Position numbers and translations under genes: made by a program. From Promethearchaeota archaeon (GTDB lineage Archaea; Asgardarchaeota; Lokiarchaeia; Sigyniarchaeales; SOKP01): a DNA stretch of 23,835 nt. The stretch is from assembly GCA_048939015.1 (NCBI GenBank), contig JBHLPW010000068.1, positions 1 through 23,835 on the forward strand. The letters are read 5' to 3'. Shown here piece by piece: positions 1,472 to 21,573 of the stretch (the stretch's first letter is position 1; every line of letters begins with the position of its first letter). The notes under the pieces are model-generated. The model saw only the letters and a program-made list of their open reading frames with translations, did no database searches and was not told the origin of the DNA.

Positions 1472-2131
1472 CTATGCGTCAATTTCGTCGGGTTCGACCG
1501 ATACGTGAGAAAGCAACCAATCGAGTTGTTTTTCCCTTTTATTGATGTTGAGAACAGTATTAAGAATCATAACTTCATCTGCTTTTCCTGGCATAATTGT
1601 TAAACGTCCGGCACGAAGCATAAAGAATTCAAAGACATCAGGGATATCTTTCTTAAATCGTAGACTCTTTACTGGATATCTTTCCGCCGAGCTAAACAGA
1701 CCTGATTTATGGTGAATTTCGTTCCTCTCAATTTTATAATATTCAAACCTTGTACTAATAATTACAATTCCTAAAATGAAGGCTAAAATTAATGTCATCA
1801 CCATATAAAATTCCCATGGTAAAGCTAAATCCAATTGTATTCCTGTAATATCCAATGTAAAATTCGGTAATACTAAGAAAACAACTATTAATAGAACGAT
1901 AACAATAGCTAATATCAATACAAAGAATTTAGTCGAGGAGAAATCAAAAGCAGTTACAAATATATTTATGAAAAAAACAATAAACCATACATATCCTAGT
2001 ATAGCATTAGGGGTTGTAAATGCTTGGATTAGCCATAAAACAAAGCTGGTGATAAGTAAGGGCCAGAAAAAGATAATTTTAGGGTAACTTCTTAAAAAAA
2101 TTTCATCTGGTTGTGTTTTTTTTTGAGACAT
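1472..2131 (-). CDS. Membrane protein, about 4 TM helices plus a C-terminal soluble (PH-like) domain
   Basis: Four hydrophobic segments, then a beta-rich tail (EYYKIERNEIHHKSGLF...EFFMLRAGRLTI) resembling bacterial-type PH domains. Confidence 0.6.
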   Translation of the reverse strand: MSQKKTQPDEIFLRSYPKIIFFWPLLITSFVLWLIQAFTTPNAILGYVWFIVFFINIFVTAFDFSSTKFFVLILAIVIVLLIVVFLVLPNFTLDITGIQLDLALPWEFYMVMTLILAFILGIVIISTRFEYYKIERNEIHHKSGLFSSAERYPVKSLRFKKDIPDVFEFFMLRAGRLTIMPGKADEVMILNTVLNINKREKQLDWLLSHVSVEPDEIDA

Positions 2132-2356
2132 AATAAACTTTCACTTAATATTTATTTTAATTTATAGAAGATTATAAAAATAATAGATAGATGTGTTATT
2201 TAAATATTAGTATGTTTTCAATATACCTAAAAATTCGATAGAAGGGATAAAATCTTTTTATATAATCTGTTATAGGACTAACTTTGATAATTAAAAATGT
2301 CCCAAATCAATTAAAAAAAATTTTTAACAAAGAATTGAAAATTTTATGAAAACAAC

Positions 2357-3103
2357 TTAATAGAAATTAATTGATTGAATCATTTTATAAGATAAAGTTA
2401 TTTGCTGATTTCCTTGGTCACTAATCCCCATATGGCCTGGAAGCAAGTACTTTACATCAAGATCATTTACTTTTTTAATCGAATTAATTAATGTATCTAA
2501 CGATCCTCCTGGAAAGTCAAATCTTCCGAAACTACCTCCTGTAAAAACTAAATCTCCTGGAATAAGAATTCTTTTATCTGGATCGTAATAAGAAATAGAT
2601 CCTAAGGAATGACCGGGTGTATAATGAATTTGGAATTTGTATTCAGAGGAAATTAATATTTTTTTACTATTAATCAAATCAATCACTTTTAAAGGAGTAA
2701 TTTCAACTCCAAACATTCTTGCAGAAATTCCAAGATTTCCAGGAAGGATTCGAGTTTCATCCCCTTCAGACAAGATGTTGGCAGTTTCACCATAAGCAAA
2801 GATTTCAAGTGGATCGCTCTTACTTAGTTTTACCAATGGGTAGAGTCCTAATACATGATCAACATGTTCATGAGTTAGAAAAACTTTAGTTATATTAGAG
2901 GGATTAAGATTACATTTTTCCATTCCTTTGAATAAACCATTAAGAGAGATTCCATTCCCTGCATCAAACAATGTTAATTCTTCAGTAGATGGATCTTTAA
3001 TAATATATTGATTACAATCTAGCATTTGATTTTCTGCAAAATAAAATAAATTTTTACAAATTTCTTTTCCTTTTTTTTCAGAGTCTGATCCAGGAAAAAA
3101 CAT
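2357..3103 (-). CDS. Metallo-beta-lactamase fold hydrolase (glyoxalase II-like)
   Basis: THEHVDH, TPGHS, GDLVF, GRFDFPGG and PGH motifs. GGTGA Shine-Dalgarno 7 nt upstream of the ATG. Confidence 0.9.
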   Translation of the reverse strand: MFFPGSDSEKKGKEICKNLFYFAENQMLDCNQYIIKDPSTEELTLFDAGNGISLNGLFKGMEKCNLNPSNITKVFLTHEHVDHVLGLYPLVKLSKSDPLEIFAYGETANILSEGDETRILPGNLGISARMFGVEITPLKVIDLINSKKILISSEYKFQIHYTPGHSLGSISYYDPDKRILIPGDLVFTGGSFGRFDFPGGSLDTLINSIKKVNDLDVKYLLPGHMGISDQGNQQITLSYKMIQSINFY

Positions 3104-3214: not shown

Positions 3215-3613
3215 ATGAAGAATCACCCCAATATTGAAGAATTAAAATCAAAAATAAAGCTAGGGATAAAATGTTGGCTGGAATTTGAAAATGCAAGTGT
3301 ATTGGGTTCTGGGTGGGCAGAACTACTGGAAAACATCAAGAAAAATGATGGAGGTTCTCTAACTCAGGCAGCAAAAGAATGTACTCATAAAAAAAAAGAA
3401 GGATATTCTTACAAATATGCTTGGAATATTTTGAAAAGAATTGAAAATCGAACTGGAATGAGTCCTGTAATTACTGGAAAGGGGGGTCGTGGTGGAGGGG
3501 GTTGGGTTAAGTTAAATGAGTGGGGGCTGTATCTATTAGAAACATATAAAAAATACATAAATGAAATTGAAAAAATTGAAAAGAGGCTAGGAGAAACAAA
3601 GAGGCTTAGCTAA
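3215..3613 (+). CDS. ModE-family winged HTH transcriptional regulator (N-terminal domain only)
   Basis: LGSGWAELLENI..GSLTQAAKE..YSYKYAWNILKRIE..GGRGGG..LNEWG matches the ModE wHTH pattern. No molybdate-binding TOBE domains. Confidence 0.85.
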   Translation: MKNHPNIEELKSKIKLGIKCWLEFENASVLGSGWAELLENIKKNDGGSLTQAAKECTHKKKEGYSYKYAWNILKRIENRTGMSPVITGKGGRGGGGWVKLNEWGLYLLETYKKYINEIEKIEKRLGETKRLS

Positions 3614-4231: not shown

Positions 4232-5746
4232 ATGGCACTACCCTTACCCGGAACACCGATAATAATTGATATTGGATCAGCATATGTTAAGATTGGATTT
4301 TCGGGAGAACCTGGACCTAGGTTTGTGTTTCCCTGCATTACTGGTACTGAAAAGTATAAATCTGTTATGGTCGATGTAAGTGCCAGAAGTATTTATGTTG
4401 GTAACGATGTATCTCGTATGCGTGGCGTTTTAAAAATAAAACATCCTGTAAACCGTGGAGAAATTATGGATTGGGAAAGCTACTACGAGATCTTAAATTA
4501 CATCTTTTATTCATTACTTAGAATAGATAATTTGTCAACCTATCCTGTATTCTATTGCGAAACTCCGTTTATGCATAGAGATACTAAAGAATACATAGCT
4601 AGACTTTTTTTTGAGACTCATCAAGTAAAAAGCTTAATAATGATGCCTACTCCTTTATTATCATTATTTAGCGTTGGATTGACAACAGGGTTAGTAATTG
4701 AAAGTGGAGATGGATTAACTTGGGTTGTTCCAATAGTCAATGGACAAATAATCCAACATGCAGTTCAAAAACTTCCTTTAGCCGGAGTAGATGTAAATCA
4801 AAACCTTAAGAGTCTCTTAATGAGAGAGGGTGTTAGCATTTCTTCTAGTGCTGCAGATGAGATAATTCAAGAAATAAAAGAGAAGAACTGTTATTTTGCT
4901 TTGGATCCTAATATCACTCCAAAAGTAGGGGAAATGTTTAAAGTACCAATGCCAGATGGTTCTACAATTAATGCTCCATCCTATATTCTTTATCAGGCTC
5001 CAGAAGTATTATTTAATCCTGCAATGTTAGGTTATGGGAATATTATGAATATACCTCAGGCAGTTATTGCAAGTATGAGAGCAATAGATAATAATTATTG
5101 GCACGATCTGTTATCTCATATCGTCTTTTCAGGAGGAAATCTTTCATATAATGGTTTCCAAGAACGATTTGAATCAGAGATAGAACCTCTCCTTCCCCAA
5201 TTAGGTAAAATACCCAAACCAGTGGCACCTCTTACGGCAGTAAAAAGTGAATTAATTAAACTACAAGCTGTTGAGATTGTAAAGAAAAAAGAAGATAATT
5301 GCCCACATTGTGGTGCTTTAGTAAATTTAGCTGATGGAAATGAGATATGTCCATCCTGTGGTGGGACATTAGTCTTACCAAAAATTGAAATTGGAACTTT
5401 AGGACAAGTAAATAAAGATATAGGCAAATGTCCTCATTGTAATAAAGATATAGTTGATAAAACATCACTTTTCTGTCCATATTGTGGAAAAGCTATTGAA
5501 GCTTTAGGAAAAGTTGATATCCCCAAAGAGATTACACAAAAAACACCTGCACAAGAATTTTCTGAATTCATGGAAACTGCTAATAAAATCATCAAATTTT
5601 TTGTACCAGATAATTTGCAATATGCAATTTTTACTGGTGCAGCCATCTTAGGAAGTTTGCCTTCTTTCCAACAAATGTTTATTACTTATGATCAATTCCA
5701 AACAAATAGAGAATCGTTATATAGAGATATTAGTGAAATTCTGTAA
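4232..5746 (+). CDS. Actin-family (actin-related) protein with an inserted double zinc ribbon
   Basis: Phosphate-1 DIGSAYVKIGFSGE, phosphate-2 ESGDGLT, IKEKNCYFALD, PDG, APEVLFNP, adenosine motif VFSGG, C-terminal GAAILGSLPSFQQMFIT. Four CPxC pairs lie in the insertion. Confidence 0.92.
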   Translation: MALPLPGTPIIIDIGSAYVKIGFSGEPGPRFVFPCITGTEKYKSVMVDVSARSIYVGNDVSRMRGVLKIKHPVNRGEIMDWESYYEILNYIFYSLLRIDNLSTYPVFYCETPFMHRDTKEYIARLFFETHQVKSLIMMPTPLLSLFSVGLTTGLVIESGDGLTWVVPIVNGQIIQHAVQKLPLAGVDVNQNLKSLLMREGVSISSSAADEIIQEIKEKNCYFALDPNITPKVGEMFKVPMPDGSTINAPSYILYQAPEVLFNPAMLGYGNIMNIPQAVIASMRAIDNNYWHDLLSHIVFSGGNLSYNGFQERFESEIEPLLPQLGKIPKPVAPLTAVKSELIKLQAVEIVKKKEDNCPHCGALVNLADGNEICPSCGGTLVLPKIEIGTLGQVNKDIGKCPHCNKDIVDKTSLFCPYCGKAIEALGKVDIPKEITQKTPAQEFSEFMETANKIIKFFVPDNLQYAIFTGAAILGSLPSFQQMFITYDQFQTNRESLYRDISEIL

Positions 5747-5899: not shown

Positions 5900-6997
5900 T
5901 TGAAGTACAAGTCTCAAAAATTATTTATCAGCATTCTTATATTTATTATTGCATTAAACATAATTCCTAGTGTTTTAGGAAAAACACGAGGAAATTATCT
6001 TACTAGTTTCATATTAAATAATGAAATTGATGGAGAAGGATTTTCTAACGCTATTTTCCCAAGTGAACCCGCAATATCTTTTGAAGCGACATCTCATGCT
6101 ATAGAGATTCTAGATAATTATGGAATAAATCCACATGATATTGAGACCCTAGAAGAGAACTTGGAAGATCAAATAAATGATATCTTGGATGATAATGATC
6201 CCAATTTATATGATTTATATTATTTATTGAATTCACTGAAAATGCTAGATCCTGTAATTGATTCAACCATATTGGGTGAAATTGAGACGCATCTAAATTT
6301 TACCAAACAAGCGACAGGTGGCTTTTCTTATTCAAATACTACTAAGGCAGTAAGTTTAGCTTCAACATACTTCTCTATTCGACTTCATGCATTAATAGAT
6401 AAACCCATAGAAAATATTACAATTCATAGAGATTGGGTTCTTTCGTGTTATAATAATGATGGTGGATATGGAAGTAATCAAAGTTTAAGTTCAACCTTAG
6501 TAGATACTTGTTTTGCAGTTTTTATCTTGGAGGAATTGGAAGAAATAGAATCTTTGAACAGTCCTATTAACACTTTAGGTTATATTCAATCTTTTTTTAT
6601 TATAGATTCTAAAGACCAAATTAATTATGGTGGGTATATCCCTGATGAATATTCTCAATATGCGTTATTAAGTAGCACGTATTATTCTACGAAAGCAGTT
6701 TCTTTAATTGATGATTCTAAATTATTTAAAGCAACTATAAGAAATTGGGTATTAGCACACCAAAATTTTAGAGATGGTGGATTTGTTGAAAATAATGAGA
6801 TTGATCAAGAAAAATCATCCTCAATCATATTCAGCTATTATGCTTTCGAGACATTAAAGACATTAGATTCATTATCTAGTTTACTTAGTGAAATATGGGC
6901 AGTTGAATTTGATTATTGGATTTTAATAATAATCTTAAGTTCTATTGCCATAATTATTGTTGTAGCAATCATCCTCTATAAAAGAACAAGGTTATAA
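5900..6997 (+). CDS. Type I membrane/secreted protein with prenyltransferase/squalene-cyclase-type alpha-alpha barrel repeats
   Basis: N-terminal signal-like segment, repeated GGF/GGY motifs (TGGFS, DWVLSCYNNDGGYG, YGGY, NWVLAHQNFRDGGF), C-terminal TM helix and short basic tail YKRTRL. Confidence 0.75.
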   Translation: MKYKSQKLFISILIFIIALNIIPSVLGKTRGNYLTSFILNNEIDGEGFSNAIFPSEPAISFEATSHAIEILDNYGINPHDIETLEENLEDQINDILDDNDPNLYDLYYLLNSLKMLDPVIDSTILGEIETHLNFTKQATGGFSYSNTTKAVSLASTYFSIRLHALIDKPIENITIHRDWVLSCYNNDGGYGSNQSLSSTLVDTCFAVFILEELEEIESLNSPINTLGYIQSFFIIDSKDQINYGGYIPDEYSQYALLSSTYYSTKAVSLIDDSKLFKATIRNWVLAHQNFRDGGFVENNEIDQEKSSSIIFSYYAFETLKTLDSLSSLLSEIWAVEFDYWILIIILSSIAIIIVVAIILYKRTRL

Positions 6998-14666: not shown

Positions 14667-16103
14667 TTAAAGTAATGTAATTAATACATCTAAAGCGTCT
14701 AAAACCTTCTTACCACTTTCAGTTATAAAATAAAACACATTTTTACCTTCTTTTTTTCGGGAAATTAAACCCTTAGATTCTAATTCTTTTAGATGTTGAT
14801 AAATTGCTGCTAAACTTATAGTACCCATAATCTCTTGAATTTTAGTGCCACTTATTCCTTTGATACTCGATAATGAAACTTGAGATAATATTTTCAATTT
14901 TGTAATAATGATTGATCCCTTTCCAGTCGTTTTAGTTTGAGATGAAATTGCTTCTAAGACATATGGTGCTTTTAATCCACTTCCTGTAATTATACAAATA
15001 ATCTTTTCATTAATTCCAAACATATCTTCTCGATTCAATGATTCTAATGCTGCTACTGTTAATGCAGAAGCGGGTTCAGCAAAGATTCCTTCATATCTAA
15101 TTAGTTTATCTATTGAATTCAGAATATTATCCTCAGGAATTGTAATAACTGTACCTCCGCTTTCTCTTATGCACTTAATAGCAAAGTCACTGTATAATGG
15201 CTTTTTTACTAAGATTCCTAAAGCAAGTGATTTTTCGAGATTACGATTTGGGCTGTCAATAATATCTTTTTTGAAAAATGCATCTGCAATAGGAGATAAA
15301 ACTTGAGATTGTATTCCTATTAATTTTGGGATTCTACTAATGACTTTAATATTTAATAACTCATGAAATCCTTTCCATAAACTTACCAATAATTCTCCAC
15401 TCCCCATAGGGATTAAAATCCAATTTGGATCTTCCACTTGCTTAATTAATTCGTAAGCAATGGTTTTTTGGGCTTCAAGAGTAAGTGGATTCAATTCAGC
15501 AGTACCTTGATAGAAATCTTCAATATTTTCTCTTTTTAACATATTTACAATGGCATCATCAACAGTTTTTCCCCTTACTTCTAATTTAGAGTCATATGCT
15601 ATCATTTGTGCTTTTTTACCTACATCGATTATTTCTGGAATGATATTCATACAAGTCATTCCTTCAATAGAAGTATATGCAGCCAATGAAGCACCTTGAT
15701 TACCATTCGAAGCACAAATAATTTTATCATAATCCCAACTCCTCGCATGTGAAGTTAATAATGCTGCAACACGATCCTTAAATGAATTAGTAGGATTTTG
15801 AGTTTCATCTTTGAAGTACAAGGATTTTAATCCTAATTTTTCTCCAAATTTTTTTGATCTTCGACATGGAGTTCCCCCTTCCCCTAAAGATATAATAAAA
15901 GCATCCTTAATATAAGGAACCGTAAATCTACAATCCCAAAATTTACTTAAATTCTCAATTTTAGAGAAATCCTGTTTAAGCGTTTCTTTATTAACTTCAT
16001 ACCACAATATACCATTACATTCAGGGCATTTATGCTGAATAGAGAATAATTCAAACTTTTTTTTACACTCAATACAAGTTAAAATTAGTGGTTTTCTAAT
16101 AAT
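14667..16103 (-). CDS. thrC: Threonine synthase-like PLP enzyme with N-terminal zinc ribbon and C-terminal winged HTH
   Basis: LGEGGTP, NPTNSFKDR (PLP lysine), ASNGNQGAS, PMGSG, EPASA, TGSGLK. The frame stays open upstream of the listed TTG (16007) through CIEC..CPEC to ATT at 16103. Confidence 0.85.
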   Translation of the reverse strand: MIRKPLILTCIECKKKFELFSIQHKCPECNGILWYEVNKETLKQDFSKIENLSKFWDCRFTVPYIKDAFIISLGEGGTPCRRSKKFGEKLGLKSLYFKDETQNPTNSFKDRVAALLTSHARSWDYDKIICASNGNQGASLAAYTSIEGMTCMNIIPEIIDVGKKAQMIAYDSKLEVRGKTVDDAIVNMLKRENIEDFYQGTAELNPLTLEAQKTIAYELIKQVEDPNWILIPMGSGELLVSLWKGFHELLNIKVISRIPKLIGIQSQVLSPIADAFFKKDIIDSPNRNLEKSLALGILVKKPLYSDFAIKCIRESGGTVITIPEDNILNSIDKLIRYEGIFAEPASALTVAALESLNREDMFGINEKIICIITGSGLKAPYVLEAISSQTKTTGKGSIIITKLKILSQVSLSSIKGISGTKIQEIMGTISLAAIYQHLKELESKGLISRKKEGKNVFYFITESGKKVLDALDVLITLL

Positions 16104-16282: not shown

Positions 16283-17038
16283 ATTCTTCTCTGGATTATA
16301 ATATTTAGTATTTTAGGAAGTATTGGTGCTATATTTCTTGCTTATATTTTTCTAAGTTTAAGGAAAATCTTACAAAAATCTCTTGTAACATGCTTGGTAG
16401 CCTATGCAACTGGTACATTATTAGCAGCAGCATCATTGGGAATGATCCCTACAGCCATATCAAAAGCAGGGGATTCAATGCAAATTGTAATGATCTTCTT
16501 TTTAGGAGGGCTTATGTTTTTTTTTATTCTTGAAAAATTAGTGATTTGGCGTCATTGTCATGATGCTGAATGTGTGGTTACAGGTGAAGCTGCTGGACCT
16601 ATTATTCTTATTGGAGATGCTTTCCATAATTTTGTAGATGGAATAGTTATTGCAGCATCTTTTTTGATAAATTTTACTTTTGGTATAGCGATTAGTCTTT
16701 CTGTTATTGCTCATGAACTTCCTCAAGAAGTAGGTGATTTAGCGATTTTAATTGATAAGAATTATTCAAAAAGAAAAGCATTTTTATATAATACTATTTC
16801 GGGGAGTACAACAATTCCTGCTGCTATAATTGGATATTTTGTCTTAGATTTGATCTCCATAGCAATTCCTTTCGTACTTGCGATTTCAGCAGCGAGTTTT
16901 CTTTATATTGCATTATCTGATTTAACACCGGAATTACATCAAAAATTAGGATTAAAACATAGTTTAAGGCAGCTGATTTTAATATTTGCAGGAATATTGA
17001 CTATGATTTTAATCTTTATGTTAAAATCCATATTATAA
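16283..17038 (+). CDS. ZIP-family (ZupT-like) divalent metal transporter, copy 1
   Basis: GDAFHNFVDG (TM4), HELPQEVGD (TM5), YIALSDLTPEL. The in-frame extension to ATT at 16283 aligns end to end with the downstream paralog. Confidence 0.92.
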   Translation: MLLWIIIFSILGSIGAIFLAYIFLSLRKILQKSLVTCLVAYATGTLLAAASLGMIPTAISKAGDSMQIVMIFFLGGLMFFFILEKLVIWRHCHDAECVVTGEAAGPIILIGDAFHNFVDGIVIAASFLINFTFGIAISLSVIAHELPQEVGDLAILIDKNYSKRKAFLYNTISGSTTIPAAIIGYFVLDLISIAIPFVLAISAASFLYIALSDLTPELHQKLGLKHSLRQLILIFAGILTMILIFMLKSIL

Positions 17039-17057: not shown

Positions 17058-17813
17058 ATGCTGATTTGGATTATTATATTTAGCATTCTTGGGAGTGTTG
17101 GAGCTATTATTATTGCTGCAATTTTTGTGTTCTTAGGTGATAAGATCCAAAAAGCGCTTATTCCTACCCTTATTGCTTTTGCTACGGGGGTTTTATTGGC
17201 TGTTGCGTTTTTAGGTTTAATTCCTGAATCAATTGAAAAAGTTGGAGAACCTCATTTAATTATGCCTTTCATTTTAGGAGGAATCCTCTTTTTCTTTATA
17301 ATGGAAAAGATTGTGATTTGGAGGAATTGTCGTGATAATACCTGTGAGGTTCATTCACATGCTTCTGGTCCAATTATCCTTCTAGGGGATTCTTTACATA
17401 ATCTTACAGACGGAATTGTAATAGCTGCGGCTTTTTTAGGTGGATTGAATCTTGGAATTGTTGCAGGATTGACGATTATAATTCATGAAATATCACATGA
17501 AACAGCAGATTTTGGTATTCTCCTGCATTCAGGGTATTCAAAGAAAAAAGCTTTTGTTTATAATATGATCTCAAGCTTTCCTACTATCCCTGCTTCGATT
17601 CTTTCATTTTTCATATTAGGTGTGCTAGAATCCATTGTCCCATTTTTTTTGGCGATATCAGCAGCAAGTTTCATATACATAGCCCTTTCTGATTTAACTC
17701 CAGATCTCCATAAACACTCAGATTTTAAATATATTATTCGTCAACTAGCAACAATTTTTATTGGAATATTATTAATGGCATTGATTTTATCAATAGGAGG
17801 ACATAATCATTAG
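17058..17813 (+). CDS. ZIP-family (ZupT-like) divalent metal transporter, copy 2
   Basis: GDSLHNLTDG, HEISHETADF, YIALSDLTPDL. Confidence 0.93.
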   Translation: MLIWIIIFSILGSVGAIIIAAIFVFLGDKIQKALIPTLIAFATGVLLAVAFLGLIPESIEKVGEPHLIMPFILGGILFFFIMEKIVIWRNCRDNTCEVHSHASGPIILLGDSLHNLTDGIVIAAAFLGGLNLGIVAGLTIIIHEISHETADFGILLHSGYSKKKAFVYNMISSFPTIPASILSFFILGVLESIVPFFLAISAASFIYIALSDLTPDLHKHSDFKYIIRQLATIFIGILLMALILSIGGHNH

Positions 17814-20574: not shown

Positions 20575-21573
20575 TTGGAAGGAACGATTAGTTTAAAATT
20601 GGTTTTATTAGGAGAAGCGAATGTAGGAAAAACTTCAATTATTAATTCATATTTAGGAAAAGAATTTCCTGATCAATATTTACCCACAATTGGGAATTAT
20701 ACAGCTAAAAAGGAATATAATATAAAAGAAAAAGATATTATTGTAAATGTTACAGTATGGGATGCCGGAGGTCAAAGATCATTTAATCCCTTTAGTCGTA
20801 CTTTATATACCAATATTGATTGTGCTCTTTTAGTTTTTGATTTAACAAAGCCCAAAGAGACCTTCCTAAATCTAAAAAAGGAATTCTTAGAAAATATTAA
20901 TCAGTATTCCGAAGATGTTGTATCAGTTCTAGTTGGAAATAAAATAGATTTATTAACTAGCAATGAAAAACTTATAATAACATTAAAAGAGCTGATGAGT
21001 AAAAGAGATCATATATATTTAACTTCAGCAAAAACTGGTATAGGTATTATTCAGTGTTTTGAATTATTGATCTATACTTTTTTAAGAAAATCGGAATTAA
21101 TGGATCCAGATCTAGTTCCTAGCAATACATCAAAAGCCTTTTTAAAATTGATTGGGAAGAATGATGAAGAATTAAAGGAACAATTATGGAACTTATCTAA
21201 TATTGATACAGTTTTAGAAAAAGTGAAAATAAAGCCAAAAGTTAAAAAAGAAACCGAAGATGAGAAAGAAATCAAAGAATTGAAATACTATGATTTCCTG
21301 ATACAACAATTAGAAAAAAATGAATCTCAAAAAAATGAAGTTATGGATCAATTTTTAATTAATCTAACAGAGCTTGGAAAAACAATTAATCATATCCAAA
21401 AATCCCATTCTAAATCAGCAGAAAATTTAGTTGAAAGTTTAAAAGATCTCTTTATAACCACTAAGAAAGATTTTGAATCTAATATAGAATTAATATCAAA
21501 ATTAAACATCGAGGAATTTGAATTAGTGAAAATAATATCAAAAGTAAAAGAAGAGCAATTAGCCCAACTTTAA
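20575..21573 (+). CDS. Rab-like small GTPase with long C-terminal helical extension
   Basis: G1 GEANVGKTS, G2 PTIG, G3 WDAGGQ, G4 NKID, G5 SAK, followed by about 160 aa of charged helical sequence. Confidence 0.9.
   Translation: MEGTISLKLVLLGEANVGKTSIINSYLGKEFPDQYLPTIGNYTAKKEYNIKEKDIIVNVTVWDAGGQRSFNPFSRTLYTNIDCALLVFDLTKPKETFLNLKKEFLENINQYSEDVVSVLVGNKIDLLTSNEKLIITLKELMSKRDHIYLTSAKTGIGIIQCFELLIYTFLRKSELMDPDLVPSNTSKAFLKLIGKNDEELKEQLWNLSNIDTVLEKVKIKPKVKKETEDEKEIKELKYYDFLIQQLEKNESQKNEVMDQFLINLTELGKTINHIQKSHSKSAENLVESLKDLFITTKKDFESNIELISKLNIEEFELVKIISKVKEEQLAQL

What the first reader, a model, noticed from the sequence alone, without database searches (positions are those of the whole stretch)
5198..5587. 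Actin-family protein carrying a ~130-aa double zinc-ribbon insertion in subdomain 3
Seen: the protein is colinear with actin up to IEPLLP (about actin ITALAP, residues 317-322) and resumes at IIKFFVP..YAIFTGAAILGSL (actin IKIIAP..YSVWIGGSILASL). Between these lie CPHC..CPSC and CPHC..CPYC ribbons joined by Pro/Lys-rich linkers. Known: actin has only a few residues here, near longitudinal filament contacts and the tropomyosin-binding surface, and Arp3 has a much shorter insert at about this site. Inference: an actin-related protein with a built-in interaction module, perhaps a nucleator, cap or adaptor rather than a filament subunit.
Basis: partly seen in the sequence, partly recalled or inferred. 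Interest (0 to 1): 0.8.

Follow-up and report, generated by a model that had tools for sequence, protein, structure and literature searches.

The report
Asgard actin relative with zinc ribbons
This is a real, conserved actin-like protein found in one order of Loki-type Asgard archaea; it has a two-zinc-ribbon module spliced into a filament-contact loop and lacks actin's ATP-splitting residues, so it is probably an accessory factor of the archaeal actin skeleton, and neither its function nor its unusual architecture has been described.

Summary
Observation confirmed. The ORF at 4232-5746 (+, 504 aa) is a complete actin fold. Residues 324-452 (nt 5201-5587) replace about three actin residues (324-326, the alphaK/beta15 loop of subdomain 3) with two CxxC...CxxC zinc ribbons on low-confidence tethers.

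It is not an assembly artefact. More than 120 sequence clusters from independent assemblies keep all eight cysteines. 143 of 400 Asgard genomes carry it, all in one order, nearly always as a single copy.

Primer matching identifies the Ca. Lokiarchaeum ossiferum orthologue as GenBank UYP44711.1. A 2022 paper treed it as an "ARP" and measured it by RT-qPCR, but I found no description of the insert.

Actin Q137 is Thr/Ser throughout the clade. H161 is Trp in this family. The nucleotide-binding loops are kept. The protein diverges about three times faster than lokiactin.

Best reading, at moderate confidence: a substoichiometric, hydrolysis-impaired Arp that engages lokiactin, most likely as a barbed-end terminal subunit, and uses the ribbons as a protein-protein adaptor. 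Self-polymerisation or a monomeric scaffold role are not excluded.

This scan has found and followed up the same family at least six times on other genomes. New here are the primer-based identification, an insert-less paralogue that arose by secondary loss, rate comparisons with the other actin paralogues, and charge data against nucleic-acid binding.

The parts
4232..5746 (+). Whole gene for the actin-related protein with zinc-ribbon insert (504 aa plus stop), P0001
   Evidence: ORF list and translation. Pfam Actin plus DZR. More than 120 orthologous clusters at 62-90% identity.
4232..5200 (+). Actin core, N-terminal part (residues 1-323): subdomains 1, 2, 4 and most of 3, with the nucleotide-binding loops
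   Evidence: Pfam 9-325. PDB alignment 6-323. AF2 pLDDT is mostly above 90. VIA-align gives Z 47.4, rmsd 1.8 A over 364 residues to F-actin 8oid_A. D13, G15, S16, K20, G159, G161, G301 and G302 are invariant.
4649..4651 (+). Codon of Thr140, at the position of actin's catalytic Gln137
   Evidence: Thr in 115 and Ser in 5 of 120 family clusters. No Gln in any of 13 order-wide orthologues. Position assigned by the alignment to numbered actin.
4721..4723 (+). Codon of Trp164, at the position of actin His161
   Evidence: Trp in 120 of 120 clusters. It is H, S, T, N or F in the distant orthologues of the same order.
5201..5296 (+). Insert, tether 1 (residues 324-355): a conserved exit motif LGxIPKP, a predicted helix at 334-345, and a Lys-rich stretch
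   Evidence: L324 and G325 are invariant or nearly so, and I327 and P328 are at 90% or more. pLDDT is 90 for block 321-330, then about 50. Mean net charge is +3.8. Mean column identity is 0.69-0.73.
5297..5368 (+). Zinc ribbon 1 (residues 356-379; Cys357, 360, 373, 376)
   Evidence: Pfam Zn_ribbon_3/DZR. The Cys are invariant in 120/120. The ribbon is present in every orthologue of the order. pLDDT 76-83.
5369..5425 (+). Tether 2 between the ribbons (residues 380-398), beginning with the conserved L-P-E motif
   Evidence: L382, P383 and E384 are at 90% or more. The rest is variable (0.54). pLDDT is below 50 for 385-396.
5426..5494 (+). Zinc ribbon 2 (residues 399-421; Cys400, 403, 415, 418)
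   Evidence: Pfam Zn_Ribbon_1/DUF7575. The Cys are invariant in 120/120. The ribbon is absent from L004 (L. ossiferum), L008 and P0126. pLDDT about 79.
5495..5587 (+). Tether 3, the acidic tail (residues 422-452), containing the conserved E442-F443 motif
   Evidence: F443 is invariant and E442 is at 90% or more. A similar [AS]-x-E-[FLY] is visible in distant orthologues. pLDDT is below 50. Mean charge is -2.7.
5588..5743 (+). Actin core, C-terminal part (residues 453-504): strand beta15 and the subdomain 3/1 helices
   Evidence: PDB alignment of query 453-492 to actin 353-392 / 322-362. pLDDT 87-96.
5900..6997 (+). Downstream neighbour: a 365-aa protein with a signal peptide, a prenyltransferase-like alpha/alpha-toroid ectodomain, a C-terminal membrane anchor and a cytoplasmic tail of about 6 residues. 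A syntenic partner whose functional link is unproven.
   Evidence: Pfam PF00432, E 1e-11. Adjacent to the orthologue in 10 of 12 loci across the order, at 25-54% identity. FolD and the upstream 132-aa gene are equally syntenic.

Best explanation
The gene encodes an order-specific Asgard (Lokiarchaeia) actin-related protein. It keeps a complete, nucleotide-binding actin fold but has lost actin's hydrolysis residues. It carries a zinc-ribbon module (two ribbons here, one in some lineages) on flexible tethers, inserted exactly in the subdomain-3 loop that contacts the next subunit toward the barbed end in F-actin.

Shown: the architecture, its conservation, the single origin of the insert, the restriction to one order, the replaced catalytic residues, the fast evolution compared with lokiactin, and transcription of the L. 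ossiferum orthologue (from a paper).

Inferred: it works as a low-abundance accessory subunit of the lokiactin cytoskeleton. It docks onto lokiactin through its actin-like pointed face (D-loop, subdomains 2 and 4) and plug, most likely as the terminal subunit at a barbed end. Its own barbed face (altered W-loop, diverged subdomain-3 loops, 129-aa insert) does not readily accept a further subunit. It stays ATP-bound. The near-neutral zinc ribbons act as a protein-protein adaptor that ties that filament end to a partner not yet identified.
For: A full actin fold with an intact P-loop set.

The Q137 position is Thr/Ser in all 120 clusters and in all 13 order-wide orthologues, and H161 is replaced.

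The insert replaces actin residues 324-326. By established F-actin structural knowledge these residues belong to the 322-325 / 243-245 longitudinal contact and lie next to the tropomyosin-binding K326 and K328.

Barbed-face residues have diverged. The W-loop Y-E-G-Y reads V-N-G-Q and R147 is Leu. The subdomain-3 contact set is 21-32% identical to lokiactin or actin, against 33-34% overall, and it is the least conserved set within the clade (0.50 against 0.66). The D-loop is 50% identical to the genome's own lokiactin and keeps V-M-V.

The clade is monophyletic on a long stem (SH-aLRT 100).

Over the same genome pairs it is 36-54% identical where lokiactin is 78-81%. That is the behaviour of an accessory factor, not of a polymer constrained on every face.

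It is single-copy in 142 of the 143 genomes that carry it. A MAG rated 100% complete (G025) had no match, so it may be dispensable.

The only insert-less clade member found, P0272, is a nested duplicate on a very long branch, which suggests the conserved function needs the insert.

The ribbons are near neutral, and the insert is strongly acidic in the L. ossiferum-type orthologues. This fits protein binding better than nucleic-acid or lipid binding.

The RT-qPCR primers for UYP44711.1 match the orthologue exactly, and that paper reports lokiactin transcripts several-fold higher than those of the other homologues (PMC9834061).
Against: No binding, capping or polymerisation data exist.

The contact-set differences rest on 12-24 residues each and are modest. 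The hydrophobic cleft (0.74) and the plug are conserved within the clade, which a filament subunit would also need.

The D-loop motif is not conserved between this family and the L. ossiferum-type orthologues.

The tethers (about 33 and 31 residues) are long enough to let the ribbons loop out of a filament, so the insert need not block the barbed face.

The best structural matches are F-actin chains, but these tie with G-actin within 1 Z unit.

No partner for the ribbons is known.
Confidence: 0.4

Rival explanations
1. It is a genuine filament subunit, forming its own polymer or co-polymerising with lokiactin. The long tethers route the zinc ribbons to the filament surface, decorating it with docking sites. 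Loss of hydrolysis makes these filaments static.
For: A complete four-subdomain fold whose best structural matches are F-actin chains (Z 47). The D-loop, hydrophobic cleft and plug are conserved within the clade. The tethers are long and predicted to be flexible. By established knowledge, K326 and K328 next to the insertion site are exposed on the filament surface.
Against: It evolves about three times faster than lokiactin. The lateral and subdomain-3 contact sets are the least conserved. The W-loop tyrosines that receive a D-loop are replaced. The orthologue's transcript is several-fold below lokiactin's (PMC9834061). A MAG rated 100% complete had no match.
Confidence: 0.25
2. It is a monomeric, ATP-locked scaffold unrelated to filaments, like the nuclear Arps (Arp4, Arp8) that serve as structural subunits of larger complexes. 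The zinc ribbons and the barbed-end groove hold partner proteins.
For: The catalytic residues are lost but the nucleotide loops are kept. It evolves fast and is lineage-specific. There is precedent for Arp inserts and extensions with complex-specific roles (PMC4947185).
Against: The pointed-face D-loop resembles lokiactin's more than the protein average does. No candidate complex is encoded nearby: the neighbours are a CBS protein, a surface protein and FolD.
Confidence: 0.2
3. It links the actin system to nucleic acid, for example ParM-like DNA segregation or RNA binding, through the zinc ribbons.
For: Many archaeal zinc ribbons bind nucleic acids. The weak best PDB sequence matches of the insert are Nop10, eL43 and eS27 ribbons (E 0.05-1, not significant).
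Against: The ribbons carry mean net charges of -0.9 and +0.8. The whole insert is -7 to -17 in the L. ossiferum-type orthologues. No DNA-related neighbour is conserved.
Confidence: 0.05
4. The insert is an assembly or annotation artefact, or a decaying or mobile insertion with no function.
For: None found.
Against: The same architecture occurs in more than 120 clusters from NCBI, JGI, ENA and Logan assemblies, with all eight Cys invariant. It occurs in 143 genomes including closed single-contig ones. The frame is uninterrupted. Column identity in the insert is 0.46-0.79 against 0.84 in the core. There are no intein-like termini, judged by reading the sequence.
Confidence: 0.01

Closest known systems
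Ca. Lokiarchaeum ossiferum actin homologue GenBank UYP44711.1 (Rodrigues-Oliveira et al., Nature 2022, PMC9834061)
   Same: It is the orthologue. Both published RT-qPCR primers for it match the ORF in L004 (G016, a 6,035,313-bp single contig) exactly. It shares the insertion site, ribbon 1, the missing Gln137, and the synteny with the surface-protein gene and FolD. It sits in the same clade.
   Different: It is only 40-42% identical. It has one ribbon instead of two, a strongly acidic insert (-17) and His at the H161 position. The paper treats it only as one of three 'ARPs' in a tree and as a qPCR target. I found no mention of zinc or of the insert.
Lokiactin, the conserved Asgard actin (own copy L001:1405-2619; best solved relative PDB 9wc4 'HC1 actin')
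   Same: The same fold and nucleotide-binding loops. The D-loop is 50% identical. The best PDB sequence hit has E 1e-68.
   Different: Overall identity is 34%. Lokiactin keeps Q137 and H161 and the W-loop F-E-G-F, has no insert, is found across the Asgard phylum, and is 78-81% conserved across the order. The zinc-ribbon clade is separated from it by a long, fully supported branch.
Eukaryotic Arps whose inserts or extensions give them complex-specific roles (Arp3 inserts and C-terminal tail; Arp5 and Arp8 insertions)
   Same: The principle is the same: an actin core is retained and function is added through loops or tails near the barbed-end groove. Arp3's tail regulates its barbed-end groove (PMC4947185). 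From memory (Liu et al., J Biol Chem 2013, not read here), Arp3 has an alphaK/beta15 insert at the same loop.
   Different: No orthology is shown. No eukaryotic Arp is known to me to carry zinc ribbons. Arp2 and Arp3 keep the catalytic Gln and His. ARPC subunits were not sought here.
Dynactin Arp11 (Arp10), a non-polymerising Arp that terminates the Arp1 filament
   Same: The proposed logic is the same: an actin-fold protein keeps one filament face, has lost the other, and caps a short filament while recruiting other subunits. This is established knowledge and was not tested here.
   Different: Arp11 caps the pointed end, whereas the inference here is the barbed end. It has no zinc ribbons, and there is no evidence of common descent.
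Pfam DZR (PF12773), Zn_ribbon_3 and DUF7575 double zinc ribbons
   Same: Four CxxC knuckles with 11-12 residue spacers, scoring above the curated cut-offs. Similar modules sit on the cytoplasmic tails of other proteins in the same genome (L019, L018).
   Different: Here the module is inserted inside another domain rather than at a terminus. No function is established for DZR modules in general.

Membership tests
Actin family (Pfam PF00022, actin/ASKHA fold) | Profile match above the curated threshold | tested here: met
   227 bits against a cut-off of 27, E 4e-67.
Actin family (Pfam PF00022, actin/ASKHA fold) | Four-subdomain actin fold | tested here: met
   AF2 model m31bd31af1531 (pLDDT 83.9) aligns to F-actin 8oid_A with Z 47.4, rmsd 1.8 A over 364 residues.
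Actin family (Pfam PF00022, actin/ASKHA fold) | Nucleotide-binding phosphate and adenosine loops (actin D11, G13, S14, K18, D154, G156, D157, G158, G301, G302) | tested here: met
   D13, G15, S16, K20, G159, G161, G301 and G302 are invariant, and E157 and D160 are near-invariant. Nucleotide binding itself was not measured.
Bona fide actin / lokiactin | Catalytic Gln137 and His161 | tested here: not met
   Thr140 (T 115, S 5 of 120) and Trp164 (120 of 120). The genome's own lokiactin keeps Q and H.
Bona fide actin / lokiactin | Placement inside the lokiactin/actin clade and actin-like sequence constraint | tested here: not met
   A separate, fully supported clade. 33-34% identical to actin and lokiactin. 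36-54% identical across the order against 78-81% for lokiactin. The tree is unrooted and has no MreB or crenactin outgroup.
Eukaryotic Arp2/3-type nucleator (Arp3) | Orthology to Arp2 or Arp3 and the presence of ARPC1-5 partner subunits | not tested
   No named eukaryotic Arp sequences were available for the tree, and ARPC homologues were not searched for.
Double zinc ribbon (Pfam PF12773 DZR) | Two CxxC-x(n)-CxxC knuckle pairs with a profile score above the cut-off | tested here: met
   34.4 bits in the whole protein and 38.5 in the insert alone, against a cut-off of 27.3. All eight Cys are invariant.
Double zinc ribbon (Pfam PF12773 DZR) | Zinc actually bound | not testable with these tools
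   Needs metal analysis of purified protein.
Barbed-end capping factor (functional class) | Binds filament barbed ends and blocks elongation | not testable with these tools
   There is only indirect sequence evidence.

The most novel reading that the evidence does not exclude
A prokaryotic filament-end Arp: a hydrolysis-dead actin paralogue that terminates lokiactin filaments at their barbed ends and, through its inserted zinc ribbons, anchors those ends to a membrane or surface complex. The candidate partner is the syntenic envelope protein or a cytoplasmic-tail zinc-ribbon protein. This would be a dedicated actin end-anchoring device that evolved in Asgard archaea independently of eukaryotic CapZ, formins and Arp11, and it would bear on how their protrusions are built.
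Probability: 0.25. Interest if true: 0.8.

Novelty: new variant of a known kind. Interest (0 to 1): 0.6.

Why it matters
[quoted passage not shown] The only characterised regulators so far are profilins and gelsolins. This family is a second, lineage-specific layer: an actin paralogue turned into a non-hydrolysing factor that carries an adaptor module. It shows that "Arp-like" specialisation through domain insertion happened in archaea as well. It is present in the cultivated species (L. ossiferum, and a 4.36-Mb closed genome of the same family), so the hypothesis can be tested directly. It also offers natural variants for structure-function work: two ribbons, one ribbon, and an insert-less duplicate.

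Tried and rejected
1. Complex prediction of this protein with the genome's own lokiactin was not folded because of a tool rule on eukaryote-like chains. The job was counted and gave no information either way.

3. The first AF2 run used a shallow family-only alignment and gave pLDDT 64.6. It was discarded in favour of the run with a diverse alignment.

4. The protein-atlas search on the insert gave no usable hit. phmmer of the insert against the PDB gave only non-significant generic ribbon matches (best E 0.05, Nop10).

5. An exact look-up of the L004 orthologue in the protein collection did not find it. It was identified through the published primers instead.

6. I considered a functional link to the downstream surface-protein gene. 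Adjacency holds in 10 of 12 loci, but FolD and the upstream 132-aa gene are equally syntenic, the intergenic gaps are 41-312 bp, and the surface protein's cytoplasmic tail is only about 6 residues. I treat this as a lead, not as evidence.

7. A WH2-like reading of the helix at 334-350 plus the KKK stretch was considered. The motif is not conserved in distant orthologues, so I dropped it.

8. An intein or mobile-insert reading was rejected: no splice-junction residues, and conservation is high.

9. Co-distribution with the third actin paralogue (par2) was checked. Par2 occurs in families f1 and f3 only, and one complete MAG has par2 but not this gene, so there is no obligate pairing.

10. Six literature searches found no description of an actin with a zinc-ribbon insert.
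Full report
OBSERVATION

The window has an uninterrupted ORF at 4232-5746 on the + strand, 504 aa long (P0001). Pfam finds Actin (PF00022) over residues 9-325 at E 4e-67. Between residues 356 and 421 it finds DZR, Zn_ribbon_3 and Zn_Ribbon_1, all above their curated cut-offs.

phmmer against the PDB puts residues 6-323 on residues 29-350 of 9wc4_A ('HC1 actin', E 1e-68) and residues 453-492 on 353-392. About 129 residues therefore stand where actin has two or three.

I numbered a canonical actin from the representative library by its DNGSG, IQAVLSLY, DSGDGV and KIKIIAPPERKY landmarks (P0145:125-499). Against it, the insert lies between actin S323 and I327, the alphaK/beta15 loop of subdomain 3. 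The finding's coordinates 5198-5587 are residues 323-452.

IT IS REAL AND CONSERVED

A word-indexed search of 5.8 billion proteins returned more than 120 clusters of 502-510 aa at 62-90% identity. They come from NCBI, JGI, ENA and Logan assemblies, and all carry Actin plus zinc-ribbon Pfam hits.

In an alignment of these clusters:
- All eight Cys (357, 360, 373, 376, 400, 403, 415, 418) are invariant.
- Mean column identity is 0.84 in the core, 0.79 and 0.72 in the two ribbons, and 0.46-0.73 in the tethers.

The whole insert is therefore under purifying selection, though less so in the second tether and the tail. The ESM Atlas also holds a 79-member Promethearchaeota cluster with this architecture.

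DISTRIBUTION

Among 400 genomes of the phylum, 143 have a match at E <= 1e-75. All of them lie in one order: families f1 127/134, f2 1/1, f3 10/14 and f4 4/4. None of the 246 genomes outside that order has a match, including 7 from other orders of the same class.

Every carrier has one copy, except G074. One MAG rated 100% complete (G025) had no match.

The order includes a 6,035,313-bp single-contig genome, G016. Both RT-qPCR primers published for the Ca. L. ossiferum actin homologue UYP44711.1 match its orthologue exactly (primers from PMC9834061). So the L. ossiferum orthologue is UYP44711.1. That paper places it among 'ARPs' in a tree and reports lokiactin transcripts several-fold higher than those of the other homologues. 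It is the only held paper that names the accession.

Six literature searches found no description of an actin with a zinc-ribbon insert.

EVOLUTION OF THE INSERT

In a maximum-likelihood tree of 59 actin-family proteins, with the insert columns dropped, the 19 zinc-ribbon proteins form one clade. It has SH-aLRT support of 100 and sits on a long stem, apart from the genome's own lokiactin and its third paralogue. The tree is unrooted and contains no named eukaryotic Arps.

Ribbon 1 is present in every orthologue. Ribbon 2 is missing from L. ossiferum (L004) and from the L008/P0126 lineage. The L. ossiferum-type proteins have a longer, strongly acidic tail.

One genome, G074, has a second copy (P0272, L016:2818-3972:-) in which about ten residues stand in place of the insert. 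It is a singleton in the 5.8-billion-protein collection. It is nested inside this family with support of 99 and sits on a very long branch of 0.94. This is a duplicate that lost the insert and then diverged fast.

WHAT THE CORE SAYS

The nucleotide-binding loops are invariant.

The two residues that position the hydrolytic water in actin are replaced:
- The Q137 position is Thr in 115 and Ser in 5 of 120 clusters, and it is never Gln anywhere in the order.
- The H161 position is Trp in all 120 clusters. It is H, S, T, N or F in the distant orthologues.

The genome's own lokiactin keeps both residues.

With a diverse alignment, AlphaFold2 gives a confident core (pLDDT above 90), ribbons at 76-83, and tethers below 50. 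The core superposes on F-actin at Z 47.4 and 1.8 A over 364 residues, tying with many actin entries.

I compared the residue sets that make filament contacts in F-actin. The sets come from established structural knowledge and hold only 12-24 residues each, so this evidence is weak.
- The D-loop is 50% identical to the genome's own lokiactin and keeps V-M-V.
- The subdomain-2 and subdomain-4 pointed-face set is 38-43% identical.
- The barbed-end cleft is 38-42% identical, but its W-loop Y-E-G-Y reads V-N-G-Q and R147 is Leu.
- The subdomain-3 barbed-face set is 21-32% identical and is the least conserved set within the clade (0.50 against 0.66 overall).
- The lateral contacts are also below average.

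Across the same genome pairs this protein is 36-54% identical, the third paralogue 49-63%, and lokiactin 78-81%.

WHAT THE INSERT SAYS

The ribbons are near neutral, with mean charges of -0.9 and +0.8. The first tether is basic (+3.8) and the tail is acidic. In the L. ossiferum-type orthologues the whole insert carries -7 to -17. This argues against a conserved nucleic-acid or acidic-lipid binding role and for protein-protein contacts.

The insert has no significant sequence match to any solved structure.

In the same genome, similar ribbons sit on the cytoplasmic C-terminus of a 497-aa membrane protein and at the end of a 228-aa protein next to a JAB/MPN gene. They seem to be a common cytoplasmic module in this organism.

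CONTEXT

Across the order, the conserved block is: a 132-aa gene with no Pfam hit, a CBS-pair gene (in this family only), this gene, a 365-aa surface protein, and FolD. The surface protein has a signal peptide, a prenyltransferase-like toroid and a C-terminal anchor.

The surface-protein gene is adjacent in 10 of 12 loci, down to 25% identity. FolD is just as syntenic, the intergenic gaps are 41-312 bp, and the surface protein's cytoplasmic tail is about six residues. I treat the link as a lead only.

INTERPRETATION

The secure part is this: an order-specific Asgard actin-related protein that binds nucleotide, is impaired in hydrolysis, and carries a zinc-ribbon adaptor module at a barbed-face loop.

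The mechanistic part is inferred. I rank the readings as follows:
- 0.4: a low-abundance accessory subunit that docks on lokiactin with its pointed face, terminates or anchors barbed ends, and recruits a partner through the ribbons.
- 0.25: a true co-polymerising or self-polymerising subunit with surface-exposed ribbons.
- 0.2: a monomeric scaffold like the nuclear Arps.
- 0.05: a nucleic-acid link.

An artefact is excluded.

RELATION TO EARLIER NOTES OF THIS SCAN

The same family has been followed up at least six times on other genomes, with similar verdicts. Here I re-tested independently the order-wide distribution, the lost catalytic residues, the one-or-two-ribbon variation, the neighbour synteny and the L. 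ossiferum orthology.

New here are:
- the primer-based identification of UYP44711.1;
- the insert-less nested paralogue;
- the rate comparison among the three actin paralogues;
- the charge analysis;
- a more cautious reading of the 'only one filament face kept' and 'tied to the surface protein' ideas.

VERDICT

This is a real feature and a new variant of a known kind: an actin-related protein with an inserted double zinc ribbon. Its architecture is undescribed in the literature I could search. It is of moderate to high interest for the biology of the Asgard cytoskeleton, and it can be tested in cultivated species.

Noticed in passing
L016:2818-3972 (-), genome G074 contig C37: An insert-less paralogue of the zinc-ribbon Arp (P0272, 385 aa, 48% identical). 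About 10 residues stand in place of the 129-aa insert. It is nested inside the family (support 99) on a long branch of 0.94, and it is a singleton in the 5.8-billion-protein collection.
   Followed up: yes
P0227 (433 aa, from the representative library): A lokiactin-like protein (47% identical to the genome's own lokiactin) with a single CxxC...CxxC zinc ribbon fused at its C-terminus. This looks like an independent actin-plus-ribbon fusion, again on the barbed-end side of the fold.
   Followed up: partly
L002:1489-2610 (+), own genome contig C104: A third actin paralogue (373 aa), which also lacks Gln137 and His161 at the aligned positions. Clear orthologues (E < 1e-110) occur only in families f1 (116/134) and f3 (13/14) of the same order, so it is another order-specific Arp. 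It shows no obligate co-occurrence with the zinc-ribbon Arp.
   Followed up: partly
G025 (same family, rated 100% complete): No match to the zinc-ribbon Arp at E <= 1e-75, although the third paralogue and lokiactin are present. This may be a genuine loss, which would imply the gene is dispensable.
   Followed up: no
window 3215-3613 (+): A 132-aa protein with no Pfam hit, conserved just upstream of the Arp gene across the whole order (32-74% identity). By eye it has a Gly-rich stretch (GKGGRGGGGW) and resembles a small winged-helix regulator. This reading was not checked.
   Followed up: partly
window 16394-17038 and 17058-17813 (+): Two adjacent ORFs that each match only the C-terminal half of the ZIP zinc-transporter profile (PF02535). 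They could be a tandem pair of short ZIP-like proteins or a split gene.
   Followed up: no
window 20575-21573 (+): A 332-aa Ras/Roc/Arf-type small GTPase with a C-terminal extension of about 165 residues, a typical Asgard eukaryotic-signature protein.
   Followed up: no
window 14667-16007 (-): A PLP-dependent enzyme (PALP) with weak PadR/HxlR-like winged-helix matches at its C-terminus, below the curated cut-off for PadR. This may be an enzyme-regulator fusion.
   Followed up: no
L019:1495-2988 (-), own genome contig C72: A 497-aa membrane protein with an N-terminal RGG/Gly-Arg repeat, a Tyr/Trp/Pro-rich stretch, two membrane spans and a cytoplasmic C-terminal double zinc ribbon. It is the closest in-genome relative of the Arp's ribbon module (E 0.003).
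   Followed up: partly
L018:940-1626 (+) and 1844-2542 (+), own genome contig C85: A 228-aa protein ending in a CPHC...CPYC ribbon lies directly upstream of a JAB/MPN-type (deubiquitinase-like, by motif) gene. The second ORF contains a short masked stretch (XXXX).
   Followed up: no
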